Source of the DNA: a virus
Taxonomy: Duplodnaviria > Heunggongvirae > Uroviricota > Caudoviricetes
Virus record (IMG/VR): IMGVR_UViG_3300028534_000019
Span: 31,091-95,090 of that record
DNA: 64,000 nt
Reading direction: 5' to 3' (one strand)
Within the stretch, counting starts at the first letter, position 1. Each line of letters starts with the position of its first letter. Below the pieces are notes generated by a model. It was not told the origin of the DNA. It saw only the letters and a program-made list of their open reading frames with translations, and did no database searches. Both the position numbers and the translations under genes were made by a program. Below are positions 1,130-20,490 of this stretch, in pieces.

Positions 1130-1139
1130 AAATAAAAAA

Positions 1140-1161
1140 TTAAGTAATTTTACTATATAAT
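1140..1161 (+). promoter_or_regulatory. Promoter candidate (TTAAGT-N10-TATAAT) upstream of gene 32
   Basis: AAAATTAAGTAATTTTACTATATAAT. The same 26-nt pattern recurs at 13876, 26613, 39378 and 48823. Confidence 0.55.
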
Positions 1162-1177
1162 ACATTTACAAAACAAA

Positions 1178-1214
1178 AAGAAGTAATAAAAAAATATAAA
1201 TATTATTACTTCTT
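1178..1214 (+). promoter_or_regulatory. 11-bp stem hairpin in the gene 32 leader
   Basis: AAGAAGTAATA (1178-1188) is the exact reverse complement of TATTACTTCTT (1204-1214), with a 15-nt loop. Confidence 0.5.
1195..1202 (+). promoter_or_regulatory. T4-type late promoter box TATAAATA (candidate)
   Basis: Exact TATAAATA lies in the loop of the 1178-1214 hairpin upstream of gene 32. This 8-mer is also expected by chance in AT-rich DNA. Confidence 0.3.
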
Positions 1215-1261
1215 TAACATATAATAAAGAGTTATCATTTTATTGATGCTCTTTACAGTAT

Positions 1262-1332
1262 GTTAAATAAGGTGCGATTAAATCGTTGGAAATGTTAGAA
1301 ATTGTTAGATTTCGTTAAATAATTGTTAGAAA
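1262..1332 (+). promoter_or_regulatory. Periodic GTTRRA repeats in the gene 32 5' leader (candidate translational operator)
   Basis: GTTAAA at 1262, GTTGGA at 1285, GTTAGA at 1294 and 1304, GTTAAA at 1314, GTTAGA at 1325. The last five are spaced 9-11 nt apart and end 12 nt before the RBS and ATG at 1345. Confidence 0.45.
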
Positions 1333-1344
1333 AAGGAAAAATAT

Positions 1345-2358
1345 ATGTTAGATTTTAACAGCAACTCATTAGATTGGGATTCACTAGAAAAAAATTTAGG
1401 TGCGGATGTCAAAGACAAACCAAAGAAAAACTACAAAGATGATAGATTGTGGAGATTAGCTCAAGATGAAAATGGAGCAGGTGGAGCAATTATCAGATTA
1501 CTACCAGACCCTGAGGGTAAACCATTCATCAGACTTTACAAACACGCTTTTAGTTCATATGACCCTATTAAGAAAAGACAAAGATGGTATATTGGTACTT
1601 CACCACAAACTATTGAACAACCTTGTCCAGCTAGTGATTTATGGCAGTCTTTAATGGGAATTGGTACAGAAGAAGCAAAACAAGAGGCTAGAAGTTTTAA
1701 TAGAAGTATTAAATATATGTGTAACATCAAAGTTATTAAAGACCCAGCAAACCCACAAAATGAGGGTAAAATTTTCTTATGGGAATTTGGTACAAAACTT
1801 AAAGATAAATTTATGGCGGCTCTCAACCCATCAGAAACAGAAAGACAAATGGGAGAAGAACCAAAACAACTTTTCAATCCATTTACAGGGTGTAATGTAA
1901 AACTCAAAATTAAAAAAGTAGCTGGATTCCCTAACTATGATGAAACTGAAATTATGGGTGTAAGTGCTATTTATGAAAATGGAGATGTTGCCAAAGAAGA
2001 TATTCTTGCTAATGGGCATAAACTTTCAGAGTTCTTAAAACCTGATGCTTTTGATTCATATGAAGAACTTAAAGGTAAACTTAAATATGTTCTTGAAACA
2101 TATAAACCTAAACATCTTGATGAAGTTGTTTTTAGAAATGCTGTTGCACCTCTTATTAGTGGAACTAGTGGAACTAATGAGGAAGCACCAAAAACAGAAA
2201 GTGTTAAAGAAAATGTTGTTGATAGTGTAGATGTATCTCAAACTGAAACACCTGCTAATGATGTTCAAGAAACACCAAAAGTAGAAACAAAACAAGATAC
2301 AACCCAATCAGCACCATCAGCACAAAGTGATGATTTATCATTCTTAGAAGACCTTTAG
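1345..2358 (+). CDS. 32: T4 gp32-like single-stranded DNA-binding protein
   Basis: Blocks match my memory of T4 gp32: GAGGAIIRLLP, NIKVIKDPANPQNEGKIFLWEFG, KIKKVAGFPNYDETE, and an acidic Ser/Asp tail ending DDLSFLEDL. Confidence 0.9.
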   Translation: MLDFNSNSLDWDSLEKNLGADVKDKPKKNYKDDRLWRLAQDENGAGGAIIRLLPDPEGKPFIRLYKHAFSSYDPIKKRQRWYIGTSPQTIEQPCPASDLWQSLMGIGTEEAKQEARSFNRSIKYMCNIKVIKDPANPQNEGKIFLWEFGTKLKDKFMAALNPSETERQMGEEPKQLFNPFTGCNVKLKIKKVAGFPNYDETEIMGVSAIYENGDVAKEDILANGHKLSEFLKPDAFDSYEELKGKLKYVLETYKPKHLDEVVFRNAVAPLISGTSGTNEEAPKTESVKENVVDSVDVSQTETPANDVQETPKVETKQDTTQSAPSAQSDDLSFLEDL

Positions 2359-2368
2359 TCTTCTAAGA
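2342..2368 (+). terminator. Hairpin spanning the gene 32 stop codon (terminator or stability element)
   Basis: TCTTAGAAGAC (2342-2352) and GTCTTCTAAGA (2358-2368) are perfect complements with a 5-nt loop, followed by TTT. There is no long U-tract. Confidence 0.45.
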
Positions 2369-4883: not shown

Positions 4884-5633
4884 ATGTATATACCAAGAAG
4901 AGAATTTGATGATGAACCAAAAATAATTATTTTTAGTGGTGCTGGATTGGATGCCCCATCAGGATTAAAAACTTTTAGGGGTTCTGATGGTTTATGGGAT
5001 AGCCACAAAATACAAGATATTTGTACTGAAAGTACTTGGAAACAAAATTTTGAAGAAGTTCATAATTTTTATAATGGTTTAAGAAATAAATTAGAAAAAG
5101 CACAACCAAATAAAGCACATTTAAAAATAAAAGAATTATATGAAAAGTACCCTGATAGTGTTCTAAATATTACAATGAATATATCAGACTTTTTTGAAAG
5201 GTTAGAAGTTCCAGTTCTTCATATTCACGGAGAACTTAAAAAAATGGAATGTTATGCTTGTGGTACTAAATGGGATATTGGGTATAAGCAGTGGGATATT
5301 GAAAAAGATAGGTGTCCTAAATGCAATAGTAGAAAAGGTGTGAAACCATCTATTGTATTTTTTGGTGGTCAAGCACCTATGTATAGCTACTTGTGGCGTG
5401 CTTTTGAGCATACTATGAATAAAGATACTATTGTGATTGTTATTGGTACTCAGGGTAATGTAGTGAATGTAGAAGAGAATTTAATAGGTACTCCTTGTAA
5501 GAAAATTCTTTGTAATATGGAAGCATCAGCAGATATTAATGTAAAAAAATGTGGTTTTGATAAGGTGTACTATGAAAGTATAGAAACAGCAATAGACAAA
5601 ATTATGGATGATATTGAAGAATGGAAAAAATAA
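4884..5633 (+). CDS. Sir2-family NAD-dependent deacylase (CobB-like sirtuin)
   Basis: FSGAGLDAPSGLKTFRG (GAGxS...FR), VLHIHG (catalytic His), Zn site CYAC...CPKC, and PSIVFFGG. Confidence 0.8.
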   Translation: MYIPRREFDDEPKIIIFSGAGLDAPSGLKTFRGSDGLWDSHKIQDICTESTWKQNFEEVHNFYNGLRNKLEKAQPNKAHLKIKELYEKYPDSVLNITMNISDFFERLEVPVLHIHGELKKMECYACGTKWDIGYKQWDIEKDRCPKCNSRKGVKPSIVFFGGQAPMYSYLWRAFEHTMNKDTIVIVIGTQGNVVNVEENLIGTPCKKILCNMEASADINVKKCGFDKVYYESIETAIDKIMDDIEEWKK

Positions 5634-6088
5634 AAATATTCACAAGTTACTATTCTAATATTAACAAAATCAGAGAGAATTATCCTGATTTTGTTTTAAT
5701 TTCAATTAGTGGTGGTTTGGAAAATAATATTATAACTTTAATAGATGATTGGGATAAAAGGTTAGCACCTAAAAAAGATTTCTTCTTAGAGTATAAAAAT
5801 TCAAAAGAAGGTTTACCACGAGAGATTAAATATGTAAAAGAATTTAATGATAAAGTTCTATATAAAGATAAAATAAAAATAATTATAAACTCTTGGTTAG
5901 AAAAATATCCAAACAAAACTATTGTAATGCTTTGTTATGAACATCCTAAAGATTTTTGTCATAGACAAATAGTAGCTAAAGAAATTGAAACTGTTTTTAA
6001 TGTTGATGTAAAAGAATTATTTTTTGAAAATTATGAAAGAATAGATTATAAAATGTTTCCTAAAGGCTTAGATGAAGATGAATGGTAA
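5621..6088 (+). CDS. DUF488-like protein
   Basis: VMLCYEHPKDFCHRQIVAKEI resembles the DUF488 C(x)E...CHR signature. Overlaps the Sir2 gene by 13 nt. Confidence 0.5.
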   Translation: MEKIKIFTSYYSNINKIRENYPDFVLISISGGLENNIITLIDDWDKRLAPKKDFFLEYKNSKEGLPREIKYVKEFNDKVLYKDKIKIIINSWLEKYPNKTIVMLCYEHPKDFCHRQIVAKEIETVFNVDVKELFFENYERIDYKMFPKGLDEDEW

Positions 6089-6640: not shown

Positions 6641-6708
6641 TTTTAAGTTTCATTTAAGTTTAATATGTTATAATTTTACATATCAAAAGACAAAAAGGAT
6701 TTAAAATG
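6641..6708 (+). repeat. 68-bp promoter/leader cassette, copy A (67/68 identical to 36837-36904)
   Basis: TTTTAAGTTTCATTTAAGTTTAATATGTTATAATTTTACATATCAAAAGACAAAAAGGATTTAAAATG. Contains TTAAGT (6654), TGT-TATAAT (6666-6674), an RBS and the ATG. Confidence 0.85.
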
Positions 6709-18639: not shown

Positions 18640-20490
18640 ATGGCAGTTATTGGTATAGATTTAGGAACGACAAATAGTGCTGTTTCAGTTTATGAAGTAG
18701 GGGAATTTAAAATTATTCCTAATGCTGAGGGTAAAAATACAACACCTAGTATTGTAGCATTTACAGATAAAGGGGATGTATTAGTAGGGGAATCAGCAAA
18801 AAGACAAGCAGTCACAAACCCTGAAAAAACTATTGAAGCAATTAAAAGAATTATGGGTATGCAATTTAATGAACCTAGATGTAAAGAGGCTCAAGAAAAA
18901 GTACAATATAAAATTGTAGATAAAAATGGTTTGGCCGCTGTTGATGTTGATGGTAAGATTTATACACCACAAGAAATTTCAGCTAAAATCCTTACAAAAC
19001 TAAAAGATGATGCAGAAGCATTTATTGGTAAAGAAGTTACAGATGCTGTAATTACAGTTCCAGCATACTTTAATGATGCTCAGAGAAAGGCGACACAAGA
19101 GGCAGGCGTTATTGCAGGGCTTAATGTACTAAGAATTATTAATGAACCTACTTCGGCCGCTCTTGCTTATGGTTTGGACAAAAAAGGTGAGGAAAATATT
19201 CTTGTTTATGATTTTGGTGGTGGTACTTTTGATGTATCTGTATTAGAAATTGGAGATGGTACTTTTGAAGTTCTTTCAACTGATGGTAATGCTTTCTTAG
19301 GTGGTAAAGACTTTGACCAAATTTTAGTTAATTATATTGCTGAATATTTTAAAGAGAAACAGGGTGTTGATTTAAGAAATGATAAAATGGCACTTCAAAG
19401 ATTATATGATGCTTCAGAAAATGCTAAAAAAGAGTTATCAAGTGTTGTAGAAACTGAAATTAACTTACCATTTATTACTATGACAGAAGCCGGCCCGCAG
19501 CATCTTGTTTTAAAAATTTCAAGAGGTAAATTTGAGGGGTTAGTACAAAATCTTGTAGATGAAACTATTGAACATATTACAACAGCATTACAAGACGCTG
19601 GTTTAAGTGTAGATGATATTAGTGAATTGATTATGGTTGGTGGCTCAACAAGAATACCTTTAGTACAAGAGGCAGTTTCAAAGTATTTTAAAGGTAAAAC
19701 TCTTAATAAATCTGTTAATCCTGATGAAGTTGTAGCCGCTGGTGCTTCAATTCAAGGTGGTGTATTAACAGGAGATGTAAAAGATGTTCTTCTTCTTGAT
19801 GTTACACCATTATCACTTGGTATTGAAACTATGGGTGGTATTGCTACTAAAATCATCCCAAAAGGTACAACTATTCCTGTTAAAAAATCAGAAATCTTTA
19901 GTACAGCAGTTGATAATCAACCAGCAGTTAGTATTGTAGTAGTACAAGGTGAAGCAAAATTAGCAGAAGATAATAAATCTTTAGGACAATTTAATCTTGA
20001 GGGTATAACACCAGCTAAAAAAGGTGTACCACAAATTGAAGTTAATTTTGATGTTGATTCTAATGGTGTTTTGAGTGTATCAGCTATTGATAAAGGAACA
20101 GGTAAAGAACAGAAAATAACAATTACAGGTTCGACAGGTTTAAGTGAAGAAGAAATTAGAAAGATGATTGATGATGCTGAAAAACAAAATCAAGAAAAGG
20201 CTGAAAAAATTAAAGCAATTGAAGCAAAAAATGAATTGGATGCTACTCTTTCAAGAATTAAAAACTTTAATGATGAAGAAAAAAATGAAGTGCTATCAGC
20301 TAAAATTTCTGATGTTGAAGAATATGTAAAAGAAGATAGAACAGCAGAAGAAATTAGAAAAATTAGAGATGAACTTGAAGAAGTTTATTTAAAAGCATTT
20401 GAAGAGAAATCAAAAAGAAATGAAGGTGCTGAGGTAAAAGAAAGCACTGAAAATAATGATGATGTTATTGATGCTGAAATTGAAGAATAA
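18640..20490 (+). CDS. dnaK: Hsp70 chaperone DnaK (canonical bacterial type)
   Basis: [69 protein letters not shown], and an acidic tail [10 protein letters not shown]. Confidence 0.95.

What the first reader, a model, noticed from the sequence alone, without database searches (positions are those of the whole stretch)
1130..1344. Gene 32 leader: promoter, hairpin with a late box in its loop, then five 10-nt-periodic GTTRRA repeats up to the RBS
The 215-nt region before the gp32-like gene contains these elements in order:
- A TTAAGT-N10-TATAAT promoter at 1140.
- An 11-bp perfect hairpin at 1178-1214, whose loop holds TATAAATA.
- GTTAAA at 1262, followed by a run of GTTGGA, GTTAGA, GTTAGA, GTTAAA and GTTAGA at 1285, 1294, 1304, 1314 and 1325. 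This run ends just before AAAAAGGA-N-ATG.

T4 gp32 autoregulates its translation by cooperative binding to an unstructured A/U-rich leader nucleated next to a folded element. This arrangement looks like a differently worded version of that operator. The ~10-nt period could alternatively mark same-face binding sites for a DNA-binding regulator.
Basis: partly seen in the sequence, partly recalled or inferred. Interest (0 to 1): 0.6.

Follow-up and report, generated by a model that had tools for sequence, protein, structure and literature searches.

The report
Conserved repeat-word leader of phage gene 32
The long untranslated leader in front of this phage's single-stranded-DNA-binding protein gene (gene 32) carries hairpins followed by short words repeated every ~10 bases up to the ribosome site; relatives conserve this layout, and it most likely lets the protein shut off its own translation, as in phage T4 but with a different word and fold.

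Summary
It is the only such cluster in 64 kb.

- a sixth word, CGATTAAA, at 1275;
- a second hairpin at 1214-1266 that contains the 1262 GTTAAA;
- a terminator after the gene.

In 16 metagenomic relatives (gp32 48-68% identical) and in cultured Campylobacter phages, the gene-32 leader keeps the same plan:
- a phage promoter word, TTAAGT-N10-TATAAT;
- hairpin(s), one class with clear stem covariation;
- 2-7 words, CG(A/U)U(U)AAA, 9-11 nt apart;
- a last word always 15-25 nt before the AUG.

The word tract is less structured than shuffled sequence in 15/15 leaders. Word clusters occur only at gene 32, and their CG survives strong genome-wide CpG depletion. The words contain the UUAAA/UAAA elements of the T4 gene-32 operator.

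Best reading: an RBS-anchored autogenous translational operator for gp32, analogous to T4's but not homologous to it. This is inferred, not shown.

More distant T4-like phages also carry ~10-nt-periodic, lineage-specific words in their gene-32 leaders.

Verdict: a new variant of a known kind, of moderate interest.

The parts
1140..1161 (+). Phage promoter word TTAAGT-N10-TATAAT, preceded by an A-run. Probably the early/middle-type promoter of a monocistronic gene-32 unit.
   Evidence: There are 7 exact TTAAGY-N10-TATAAT copies in the window against 0.23 expected. All are on the + strand and directly upstream of genes. The same word sits upstream of gene 32 in 13 of the 15 relatives scanned, all but L169 and L173. 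The other copies in the window stand roughly 20-60 nt before their gene's start, whereas gene 32 has a 183-nt leader. The generic sigma-70 scan does not call this word.
1177..1215 (+). Hairpin 1: a 13-bp A/U-rich stem with a 13-nt loop.
   Evidence: Read directly from the sequence. RNAfold places it in both the MFE and the centroid structure; the whole leader has z = -4.4 against shuffles. L167 has an analogous 9-bp stem of different sequence (AATACATAA/TTATGTATT) around its own TATAAATA. On the minus strand the stem is followed by TTTTTGTTTTG, which looks like a terminator.
1195..1202 (+). TATAAATA, the T4 late-promoter consensus, in the loop of hairpin 1. Probably a second, late promoter for gene 32.
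   Evidence: The same octamer lies roughly 10-30 nt before the start codon of about 9 other genes in the window. Five window-like relatives (L002, L167, L172, L299 and the more distant L169) carry one between the promoter word and the repeats, while L300 does not. The octamer is not enriched genome-wide, so this single copy is suggestive only.
1214..1266 (+). Hairpin 2. The outer stem pairs 1214-1222 with 1258-1266. The inner stem pairs 1225-1237 with 1244-1255 and has one bulge and G-U pairs.
   Evidence: It appears in the RNAfold MFE and centroid structures. G-U pairs at 1222-1258 and 1232-1248 are allowed only in the sense RNA. Relatives L002, L167, L172, L299 and L300 have a hairpin at the equivalent place with different sequences. 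There are too few sequences for a covariation test.
1243..1264 (+). Degenerate copy of the promoter word (TTGATG-N10-TATGTT).
   Evidence: It aligns with a perfect TTAAGT-N10-TATAAT at L167 2893 and with TTAGGT-N10-TAGAGT in L002, both just 5' of the words. It is probably inactive here. This is inference.
1269..1274 (+). AAGGTG, a Shine-Dalgarno-like hexamer at the 5' edge of the word array.
   Evidence: (A/G)AGGT(G/T) lies immediately before the first word in the window, L002, L167, L172, L299 and L300. No conserved start codon follows it. Its role is unknown.
1275..1330 (+). Array of six words: CGATTAAA 1275, CGTTGGA 1284, TGTTAGA 1293, TGTTAGA 1303, CGTTAAA 1313 and TGTTAGA 1324. This is the proposed operator lattice.
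   Evidence: It is the only such cluster in 64 kb. The spacing of 9-11 nt matches relatives, where 27 of 32 intervals are 9-11 nt. The region 1260-1365 folds less well than shuffles, z = +1.0. It holds 3 CG in 40 nt against 3.0 CG per kb genome-wide.
1333..1347 (+). Shine-Dalgarno AAGGA (1333-1337), a 7-nt spacer and the ATG start (1345-1347) of gene 32.
   Evidence: The last word abuts the A-run and SD. In 16 of 16 leaders the last word starts 15-25 nt before the AUG.
1345..2358 (+). Gene 32 homologue: a 337-aa single-stranded-DNA-binding protein.
   Evidence: Pfam gp32 PF08804, E = 5e-39. It is 36% identical to T4 gp32 over the core. It is followed by an RNase H homologue, as in relatives.
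2342..2368 (+). Intrinsic terminator overlapping the gene-32 stop codon.
   Evidence: An 11-bp stem followed by a T-run; it is the only terminator called in 900-2500. Terminators downstream of gene 32 are predicted in 5 of 6 T4-like genomes (PMC1524935).

Best explanation
The region 1162-1347 is the 5' leader of a monocistronic gene-32 mRNA. Transcription starts at the TTAAGT-N10-TATAAT promoter and probably, later in infection, at the TATAAATA box.

The leader has two parts. The first is a folded 5' part made of hairpins 1 and 2. The second is an ~80-nt intrinsically open 3' part made of words of the type YG(A/U)U(U)RRA, spaced 9-11 nt apart and running into the Shine-Dalgarno sequence and the AUG.

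Proposed mechanism:
- When gp32 exceeds the available single-stranded DNA, it loads onto the open word tract. Loading is helped by the words, and possibly by the adjacent fold acting as a boundary or nucleation site.
- It spreads cooperatively over the RBS and blocks initiation.
- This is the T4 gene-32 logic, built from a different word and different folds.

What is shown:
- the elements themselves;
- their conservation;
- their restriction to gene 32;
- their anchoring to the RBS;
- the openness of the tract;
- covariation of the hairpin in relatives.

What is inferred:
- that the RNA is the ligand;
- that the outcome is repression.
For: 1. Conservation. Sixteen distinct leaders (gp32 48-68% identical to the window's) keep promoter word, hairpin(s), then 2-7 words. 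L261 is the exception for the words.

2. Register.
- Word spacings are 9 (10 times), 10 (10 times), 11 (7 times) and 12-14 (5 times).
- The last word starts 15-25 nt before the AUG in 16 of 16 leaders, while the -10 box lies 11-151 nt before the first word.
- The array is therefore positioned relative to the ribosome site, not the promoter.

3. Specificity. Word clusters occur only beside gene 32 in the 64-kb window and in all relatives' loci. A gene whose cis-element has no other target is most simply regulated by its own product.

4. Openness. The stretch from the first word to +20 folds less well than shuffles in 15 of 15 leaders, z = +0.4 to +1.7. The 5' part of the window's leader is strongly folded, z = -4.4.

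5. RNA-level structure. In the larger subfamily, a hairpin with the invariant loop CAAUAACAUUUAA has 4 of 6 stem pairs with compensatory double changes. It is 88.9% paired against 30-49% in slid controls, and 0 of 500 shuffles match it.

6. Selection. CG is kept in the words although CpG observed/expected is 0.14-0.25 in the window, L081, L166, L184 and L300.

7. Parallel with T4.
- The T4 leader is a pseudoknot followed by GUUAAUUAAAUUAAAUUAAAAAGGAAAUAAAAAUGUUUAAACGUAAA.
- The pseudoknot and the UUAAA/UAAA repeats are both required for repression (PMC535899; PMC3014915).
- The relatives' words are CG+UUAAA, CGA+UAAA and CGA+UUAAA.

8. Generality. Of 151 distinct gp32 leaders from T4-like phages, 70% have a 4-mer recurring 3 or more times at 8-12 nt, and 42% have one recurring 4 or more times. 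The figures are 19% and 4% for 133 neighbouring-gene leaders (Fisher p = 2e-15, not corrected for phylogeny).
Against: - No binding or expression data exist for any member.
- T4 gp32 is described as largely sequence-independent, so a conserved CG-containing word is not what the classical model predicts.
- The 9-11-nt period does not match the ~7-nt site size of T4 gp32 (my own knowledge).
- The window's folds are not the conserved-loop hairpin of the larger subfamily, and no pseudoknot is supported.
- L261 keeps the hairpin but has no words.
- L275 keeps the words but has lost the hairpin.
- In the BLASTP alignment only the His ligand of the T4 zinc-binding site has an aligned counterpart; Cys77, Cys87 and Cys90 do not, although a Cys (C94) lies a few residues from the C87/C90 positions.
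- A ~10-bp period is also the DNA helical repeat.
- The general statistic is dominated by one clade (the ATCC words).
Confidence: 0.55

Rival explanations
1. The words form a translational enhancer, ribosome standby site or mRNA stabiliser. An open, A/U-rich leader next to protective 5' hairpins would ensure very high and long-lived gp32 synthesis, with no feedback by gp32.
For: - The tract is open and A/U-rich, abuts the SD, and is anchored to the RBS.
- A Shine-Dalgarno-like (A/G)AGGUG marks its 5' edge in the window's subgroup.
- T4 gene-32 mRNA is the most stable T4 message (PMC3014915).
- 5' hairpins are known stabilisers (my own knowledge).
Against: - Enhancers that act through ribosomal protein S1 need no specific word.
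- Conservation of CG against strong CpG depletion and a fixed 9-11-nt register argue for a specific reader.
- Other highly expressed genes in the window, such as the structural genes, have short leaders without words.
- This reading does not exclude autoregulation; in T4 both hold.
Confidence: 0.15
2. The words are an operator for another sequence-specific RNA-binding factor, not for gp32. Candidates are a RegA-like translational repressor, an unknown phage or host protein, or a small RNA.
For: - The conserved CG-containing word suggests sequence-specific reading.
- In-vitro selection with RB69 RegA yields UAA triplets (reference title cited in PMC3014915), and selection with T4 RegA yields AAAAUUGUUAUGUAA (my recollection, not retrieved from a paper here). 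These resemble AUUGUUAGA and GAUAAA.
- regA lies next to gene 62 in all 26 T4-related genomes compared in PMC3014915.
- A second word cluster lies about 300 nt upstream in five relatives.
Against: - RegA-type repressors act on many mRNAs, whereas word clusters occur only at gene 32.
- Lineage-specific words at the same place in very distant T4-like phages would need a dedicated regulator conserved everywhere.
- gp32 is the only gene always linked to the words.
- No regA search was done in the window.
Confidence: 0.12
3. The words act at the DNA level. They could be direct-repeat binding sites on one face of the helix for a transcription regulator or roadblock, phased A-tract curvature, or an iteron-type origin element.
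For: - The mean period of ~10 bp equals the helical repeat.
- Many words end in A3-5 tracts.
- Some T4 origins are a middle promoter followed by an unwinding element (my own knowledge).
Against: - The array is anchored to the AUG (15-25 nt), not to any promoter (11-151 nt).
- Individual spacings range from 9 to 14 nt.
- The words always lie on the sense strand and run into the SD.
- Neighbouring hairpins use G-U pairs and covary, which indicates RNA.
- Distant lineages use words without A-tracts, such as AUCC and ACAUACG.
Confidence: 0.1
4. The repeats are a neutral product of replication slippage in an AT-rich spacer and have no function.
For: - The number of words varies from 0 to 7 between relatives.
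- The window's words have drifted from CG to TG and from AAA to AGA.
Against: - Position, strand, register and the CG dinucleotide are conserved across gp32 proteins only 48-68% identical to the window's.
- The cluster is unique in 64 kb.
Confidence: 0.03

Closest known systems
Autogenous translational operator of phage T4/T2/RB69 gene 32 (5' pseudoknot plus an unstructured tract of more than 40 nt with UUAAA/UAAA repeats covering the RBS)
   Same: - It serves the same gene, on the same strand, in the same place.
- It has a folded element 5' of an intrinsically open, A/U-rich, repeat-bearing tract that runs into the SD and AUG.
- The relatives' words contain UUAAA/UAAA.
- The window shares AAAAAGGAAA...AUGUU with T4 around the SD.
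- Tandem promoter types and a terminator after the gene are also shared.
   Different: - The leaders cannot be aligned, so this is analogy, not homology.
- The fold is one or two plain hairpins, with no supported pseudoknot.
- The word is 7-8 nt with a conserved CG, spaced 9-11 nt apart, rather than back-to-back 5-nt UUAAA.
- In the window four of seven words are UUAGA or UUGGA.
- The leader is much longer (183 nt).
- The zinc ligands of T4 gp32 do not align, apart from the His.
T4/RB69 gene 43 (DNA polymerase) translational operator
   Same: It is a hairpin with a conserved loop sequence upstream, plus sequence overlapping the RBS, read by the gene's own product (PMC3014915). This resembles the conserved-loop hairpin (CAAUAACAUUUAA) of the larger subfamily.
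   Different: It serves a different gene and protein. It has no repeated words, and its hairpin lies about 40 nt from the AUG with no long open tract.
Candidate structured RNAs upstream of GP32 genes in IMG/VR (12 motifs; PMC10690425)
   Same: They were found by comparative genomics directly upstream of gp32 genes and were proposed to regulate gp32. The covarying hairpin of the larger subfamily may be one of them.
   Different: Those motifs were defined by structure and covariation. The periodic unstructured words described here are not structural and are not mentioned in the main-text passages on GP32. I could not check motif identity because the models are not held.
[quoted passage not shown]
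   Same: They are evenly spaced short direct repeats in a T4-type genome, conserved in syntenic regions of relatives, with unknown function (PMC3016281).
   Different: They are not in the gene-32 leader and are not tied to a ribosome site. They are presumed to act as DNA.
RegA translational repressor sites
   Same: They are short A/U-rich sequences at translation initiation regions. The selected ligands, UAA triplets for RB69 RegA and AAAAUUGUUAUGUAA for T4 RegA (my recollection), resemble the words.
   Different: RegA acts on many early mRNAs through single sites. Here there are arrays of words at one gene only.

Membership tests
T4-type gene 32 autogenous translational operator | Lies in the 5' leader of a gp32-family gene, on the sense strand, and extends over the SD and AUG. 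| tested here: met
   gp32 matches Pfam PF08804 at E = 5e-39. The words span 1275-1330, the SD is at 1333-1337 and the ATG at 1345. The last word starts 15-25 nt before the AUG in 16 of 16 leaders.
T4-type gene 32 autogenous translational operator | An intrinsically unstructured A/U-rich tract of more than 40 nt. | tested here: met
   Window 1260-1365 has an MFE of -8.8 against -11.4 for shuffles, z = +1.0. All 15 family leaders tested have z > 0.
T4-type gene 32 autogenous translational operator | Several UUAAA/UAAA repeats in the tract. | tested here: met
   The relatives' words are CGUUAAA, CGAUAAA, CGAUUAAA and CGUUUAAA. The window has three UUAAA words (1262, 1275, 1313) and four UUAGA or UUGGA variants. 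The feature is therefore met in the family and only partly met in the window.
T4-type gene 32 autogenous translational operator | An H-type RNA pseudoknot at the 5' edge, serving as the nucleation site. | tested here: inconclusive
   The window has two hairpins. The larger subfamily has a covarying hairpin. The 3' half of its loop, AUUUAA, is complementary to the word core UUAAAU in 7 of 9 leaders, but these are all A-U pairs at varying positions, so nothing can be decided.
T4-type gene 32 autogenous translational operator | Sequence homology with the T4/T2/RB69 leader. | tested here: not met
   The T4 leader shares only the A-run, AAGGA and AUGUU around the RBS. No Rfam family matched, and Rfam holds no model of this operator (PMC10690425).
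T4-type gene 32 autogenous translational operator | gp32 binds the leader cooperatively and represses its own translation. | not testable with these tools
   This needs purified protein and RNA, or infection genetics.
T4-type gene 32 autogenous translational operator | gp32 carries the zinc-binding subdomain (His64, Cys77, Cys87, Cys90) and the terminal domains used for cooperative binding. | tested here: inconclusive
   The core is 36% identical to T4. His aligns (H67), but the three Cys do not in the BLASTP alignment; a Cys (C94) lies a few residues from the C87/C90 positions, so a shifted alignment cannot be excluded. An acidic C-terminus is present.
T4-type late promoter | An exact TATAAATA box a short distance upstream of the transcribed gene. 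| tested here: inconclusive
   The box at 1195-1202 lies 143 nt before the ATG. Other copies lie roughly 10-30 nt before a start codon. The octamer is not enriched overall, but it is present in the leaders of five window-like relatives and absent from L300. No search for gp55 or gp33 was done.
T4 middle (MotA-dependent) promoter | A -10 element plus a MotA box (a/t)(a/t)(a/t)TGCTTtA centred near -30. | tested here: not met
   The box here is TTAAGT, 10 nt from TATAAT. The geometry is similar (a box in place of -35, closer to -10), but the sequence is different. motA and asiA were not searched.
Iteron-type DNA repeat array | Evenly spaced double-stranded DNA repeats that act independently of a ribosome site. 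| tested here: not met
   The array is anchored to the AUG, not to promoters. Spacing ranges from 9 to 14 nt. The words lie on the sense strand only.
RegA operator | Sites at the initiation regions of many early genes. | tested here: not met
   Word clusters occur only at gene 32, both in the 64-kb window and in relatives' loci.

The most novel reading that the evidence does not exclude
Gene-32 leaders across the T4-like phages may share a previously undescribed 'periodic word' operator design. In this design, a lineage-specific 4-8-nt word is repeated every 9-11 nt up to the ribosome site. Examples are CG(A/U)UAAA here and in Campylobacter phages, AAUCC in cyanophage-like lineages, and UGUUGUAAA, ACGAAAA, AACAUACG, CGUAUAU and AACGCAAUAC elsewhere.

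Each word would be read sequence-specifically by the cognate gp32, or by gp32 dimers or filaments with a ~10-nt register. The single-stranded-DNA-binding protein and its RNA word would then co-evolve. This would explain how a 'sequence-independent' SSB picks out its own message.
Probability: 0.3. Interest if true: 0.75.

Novelty: new variant of a known kind. Interest (0 to 1): 0.55.

Why it matters
How T4 gp32, a sequence-independent DNA binder, recognises its own mRNA is still open. PMC535899 says it is not clear how the protein distinguishes specific RNA. PMC3014915 notes that RB49 lacks the T4-type operator and calls for more study in diverse relatives.

This leader family offers a natural comparison set:
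- The architecture is the same as T4's (a fold, then an open repeat tract, then the RBS), but with a different, longer word.
- The word's CG is held against genome-wide CpG loss and it keeps a conserved ~10-nt register.
- There is an apparent trade-off between a conserved-loop hairpin with 2-3 words and no such hairpin with 4-7 words.
- The word also occurs in cultured Campylobacter phages (CP220, CP21), so the idea can be tested at the bench.

If the wider pattern of lineage-specific periodic words holds, it gives a rule for finding gp32 operators in metagenomic phages, and a handle on RNA specificity in an OB-fold SSB.

Tried and rejected
- Close relatives among deposited phages: none. blastn gave only about 60-nt matches inside gp32 of Campylobacter, Vibrio and Acinetobacter phages.
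- A single-protein scan of IMG/VR found nothing. Exact look-up of the window's gp32 found no contig.
These became useful as an outgroup.
- IMG/VR pattern scans for the conserved loop and for AAGGT plus words returned 125 stretches. Only 7 carry a close gp32 relative (52-62% identical); an eighth has only a weak partial match. The rest are chance.
- Rfam gave only sub-threshold chance hits.
- Upstream ORF idea. ATG 1292 opens an 8-codon ORF (MLEIVRFR*) whose start mimics the gp32 start. The larger subfamily has a conserved AUAUGAAA. However, the ORFs are not conserved in length or frame and lack an SD, so this was rejected.
- The conserved loop CAATAACATTTAA is absent from the window; matches with up to 2 mismatches are at chance level.
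- Hairpin 1 as a sense-strand terminator or attenuator: it has no U-run after the stem and was not called by the scan. It looks more like a terminator on the minus strand. This was not pursued.
- Words as complements of the 16S 3' end: this is not the case for this family. It may apply to the cyanophage AUCC words.
- No search for regA, motA or gp55 was made in the window.
Full report
**What is in the sequence**

Window 1130-1344 is the spacer between a 162-aa ORF ending at 1129 and a 337-aa gene starting at 1345. That gene is a clear gp32 homologue: Pfam PF08804 at E = 5e-39 and 36% identity to T4 gp32 over the core. It is followed by a T4-type RNase H.

- TTAAGT 1140-1145, N10, TATAAT 1156-1161.
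- A perfect hairpin, which in fact extends to 13 bp (1177-1189 / 1203-1215), with TATAAATA at 1195-1202 in its loop.
- GTTAAA at 1262.
- GTTGGA, GTTAGA, GTTAGA, GTTAAA and GTTAGA at 1285, 1294, 1304, 1314 and 1325.
- AAAAAGGA, 7 nt, then ATG.

- A further word, CGATTAAA, at 1275.
- A second, larger hairpin at 1214-1266, whose 3' arm contains the 1262 GTTAAA.
- An SD-like AAGGTG at 1269.
- A terminator at 2342-2368.

**Is it more than chance?**

GTTRRA is not enriched in the window as a whole (221 against 230 expected). However, the run is the only cluster on either strand of 64 kb. It has 6 copies in 70 nt, against a mean of 2.8 and a maximum of 4 in 200 dinucleotide shuffles, and about 4e-5 expected by a Poisson estimate.

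The promoter word is real:
- TTAAGY-N10-TATAAT occurs 7 times against 0.23 expected.
- All copies are on the + strand in front of genes.
- The other copies stand roughly 20-60 nt before their gene's start, whereas gene 32 has a 183-nt leader.

TATAAATA is not enriched (20 against 27 expected). Even so, it sits roughly 10-30 nt before the start codon of about nine genes. It also recurs between the promoter and the words in five window-like relatives, though not in L300. It is therefore probably a second, late promoter, as T4 gene 32 also has late transcription.

**Relatives**

The phage has no close deposited relative. Its gp32 has about 60 metagenomic homologues at 45-68% identity. I recovered 16 distinct leaders. 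They fall into two groups.

Group A contains L001, L081, L161-163, L164/165, L166, L168, L170, L173, L184 and L261. Its layout, in order, is:
- the promoter word;
- a hairpin with the invariant 13-nt loop CAAUAACAUUUAA and stems that differ between phages (AUGGAC/GUCCAU, UAAGAC/GUCUUA, GUGAC/GUCAC, ACGGAG/CUCCGU, AAGGAG/CUCCUU, GGGAG/CUCCC);
- UAUAAA(A/C)(G/U)AUAUGAAAU;
- 2-3 words CG(A/U)U(U)AAA, the last touching the SD.

Counting pairs in this hairpin gives 4 of 6 with compensatory double changes. It is 88.9% paired against 30-49% when the partner is slid, and 0 of 500 shuffles match it.

Group B contains the window, L300/301, L002, L167/280, L172, L299 and, more distantly, L169. It lacks that loop. 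Instead it has other hairpins, a TATAAATA, (A/G)AGGU(G/U) and 4-7 words.

Two natural variants are informative:
- L261 has the hairpin but no words.
- L275 equals L167 minus 56 nt that include the hairpin, with the words intact.

**Properties of the word array**

- Spacings across the family are 9 (10 times), 10 (10 times), 11 (7 times) and 12-14 (5 times).
- The last word starts 15-25 nt before the AUG in all 16 leaders. The distance from a -10 box to the first word ranges from 11 to 151 nt.
- The segment from the first word to +20 folds less well than shuffled sequence in 15 of 15 leaders (window z = +1.0).
- The 5' part of the window's leader is strongly folded, with z = -4.4 for the whole leader.
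- Word clusters occur nowhere else in the window or in relatives' loci. The one exception is a second cluster about 300 nt upstream of gene 32, after a TATAAATA, in five relatives.
- The window has CpG observed/expected of 0.18 (GpC 1.03), and several relatives have 0.14-0.25. Yet the words keep their CG: 3 CG in 40 nt here against 3 per kb genome-wide.
- In the window four words have drifted to UGUUAGA.

**Comparison with T4**

The T4 leader, read from NC_000866, is a pseudoknot followed by cuGUUAAUUAAAUUAAAUUAAAAAGGAAAUAAAAAUGUUUAAACGUAAA.

The literature states that the operator is a ~28-nt pseudoknot plus a less structured tract of more than 40 nt with several UUAAA/UAAA repeats and the RBS. 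It also states that both parts are needed for repression, and that the repeats probably contribute specificity (PMC535899; PMC3014915).

The family words are exactly CG+UUAAA, CGA+UAAA, CGA+UUAAA and CGU+UUAAA. The architecture is therefore the same: fold, open repeat tract, RBS. The sequences are not alignable, the fold is a hairpin rather than a supported pseudoknot, and the unit is longer and spaced at ~10 nt. This is analogy of mechanism, not family membership by homology.

**Wider pattern**

In the more distant gp32 loci fetched (35-46% identity), the last ~55 nt before the AUG again consist of lineage-specific words at ~9-11-nt spacing:
- AAUCC(A/G) 3-5 times in the large cyanophage-like group;
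- UGUUGUAAA 4 times (L003);
- ACGAAAA (L082);
- AACGCAAUAC (L158);
- CGUAUAU (L047);
- AACAUACG (L099, L065);
- AAUACG (L105).

Another class has two GGGAGUUCCC-type hairpins instead.

Of 151 distinct gp32 leaders, 70% have a 4-mer recurring 3 or more times at 8-12 nt, and 42% have one recurring 4 or more times. The figures are 19% and 4% for 133 leaders of neighbouring genes, and 5% and 0% for shuffles (Fisher p = 2e-15). The sample is not phylogenetically independent and is dominated by the ATCC class.

Cultured Campylobacter phages CP220 and CP21 have a 9-bp hairpin followed by two GAUUAA words 10 nt apart, a U-run and AAAGGA.

I found no paper describing such periodic words. One study lists 12 candidate structured RNAs upstream of GP32 genes and notes that Rfam has no model (PMC10690425).

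**Interpretation**

The best-supported reading is an RBS-anchored RNA operator through which gp32 limits its own translation (confidence about 0.55). The elements, their conservation, gene specificity, RBS anchoring, openness and hairpin covariation are shown.

Points that do not fit the classical T4 model:
- the conserved CG word, which implies a sequence-specific reader;
- the ~10-nt rather than ~7-nt register;
- the poorly conserved zinc site.

Rival explanations:
- A pure translational enhancer or stabiliser (0.15).
- A different RNA-binding regulator such as a RegA-like protein (0.12). Word clusters occurring at one gene only argue against it.
- DNA-level direct-repeat sites or curvature (0.10). 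AUG anchoring, sense-strand restriction and RNA-type covariation nearby argue against it.
- Neutral slippage (0.03).

**Verdict**

It is a new variant of a known kind of system. It is of moderate interest in itself and more interesting if the clade-wide periodic-word pattern proves to be a general gp32 operator code.

Noticed in passing
L003-L160 (for example L043, L003, L082, L158, L047, L099, L105), the 55 nt before each gp32 start: Distant T4-like phages have lineage-specific words at 9-11-nt spacing in their gene-32 leaders. The large cyanophage-like group uses AAUCC(A/G) 3-5 times. Its last copy lies in GAGGUAAUCC, which from my own knowledge is nearly the complement of the 16S rRNA 3' end GGAUCACCUC. 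Among gp32 leaders, 42% have a 4-mer chain of 4 or more, against 4% of control leaders.
   Followed up: partly
L011, L021, L075, L122, L151 and others: Another class of gp32 leaders has no words. Instead it has two tandem hairpins with GGGAGUUCCC-like palindromic tops directly before the SD.
   Followed up: no
L001 about 760-830, L168 2327-2346, L170 2753-2788, L184 749-765, L173 about 780-830: A second cluster of the same words (CGTTGAA, GATAAA, CGTTAAAA and others) lies about 300 nt upstream of gene 32. It follows a TATAAATA box and precedes the TTAAGT promoter, with no ORF. It could be a late-transcript leader extension or a small decoy RNA.
   Followed up: partly
L275 versus L167/L280: These are natural variants of one phage. 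They differ by a 56-nt deletion that removes the TATAAATA box and the hairpin but leaves all six words.
   Followed up: no
window, whole; also L081, L166, L184, L300: CpG is strongly depleted (observed/expected 0.18 in the window, 0.14-0.25 in these relatives) while GpC is normal (about 1.0) in a 26% G+C genome. This suggests avoidance of CG-containing restriction or methylation sites.
   Followed up: no
window 18640-20490 and 39844-41706: The phage encodes two full-length Hsp70/DnaK homologues (Pfam HSP70, E = 2e-230 and 4e-141).
   Followed up: partly
window 4884-5633 and 5621-6088: A Sir2-family protein (E = 5e-28) is followed by a DUF488-N3a protein, just downstream of the gene 32 / RNase H / putative primase block.
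   Followed up: no
window 6644-6705 and 36840-36901: Two nearly identical ~60-nt promoter-plus-leader copies (taagtttcatTTAAGT(T/C)TAATATGTTATAATtttacatatcaaaagacaaaaaggatttaaaATG) stand in front of two different genes.
   Followed up: no
window 1292-1318: A mini-ORF, ATG TTA GAA ATT GTT AGA TTT CGT TAA, lies inside the word array. Its first 8 nt (ATGTTAGA) match the gp32 start (ATGTTAGATTTT). It is not conserved in relatives.
   Followed up: yes
window 1177-1215, minus strand: On the minus strand, hairpin 1 is followed by TTTTTGTTTTG and so looks like an intrinsic terminator for antisense transcription. Antisense transcripts of T4 gene 32 are reported in a reference title in PMC3014915.
   Followed up: no
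L001, L161, L166, L170 and others: group A hairpin loop against the words: The 3' half of the invariant loop (AUUUAA) is the exact complement of the word core UUAAAU. A loop-word pseudoknot is therefore possible but cannot be tested, because all pairs are A-U.
   Followed up: partly
L302 1100-1162 (Campylobacter phage CP220) and L303 (CP21): In these cultured phages the gp32 leader is a hairpin GGUUUUAAU-AUAAUAG-AUUAAAACC, then (C/U)GAUUAA, U7 and AAAGGA. It contains two GAUUAA words 10 nt apart. This is a usable experimental system.
   Followed up: partly
window 1345-2358 (protein residues 60-100): In the BLASTP alignment only the His of T4 gp32's zinc-binding ligands (His64, Cys77, Cys87, Cys90) has an aligned counterpart. 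A nearly invariant Cys (C94) lies a few residues from the C87/C90 positions.
   Followed up: partly
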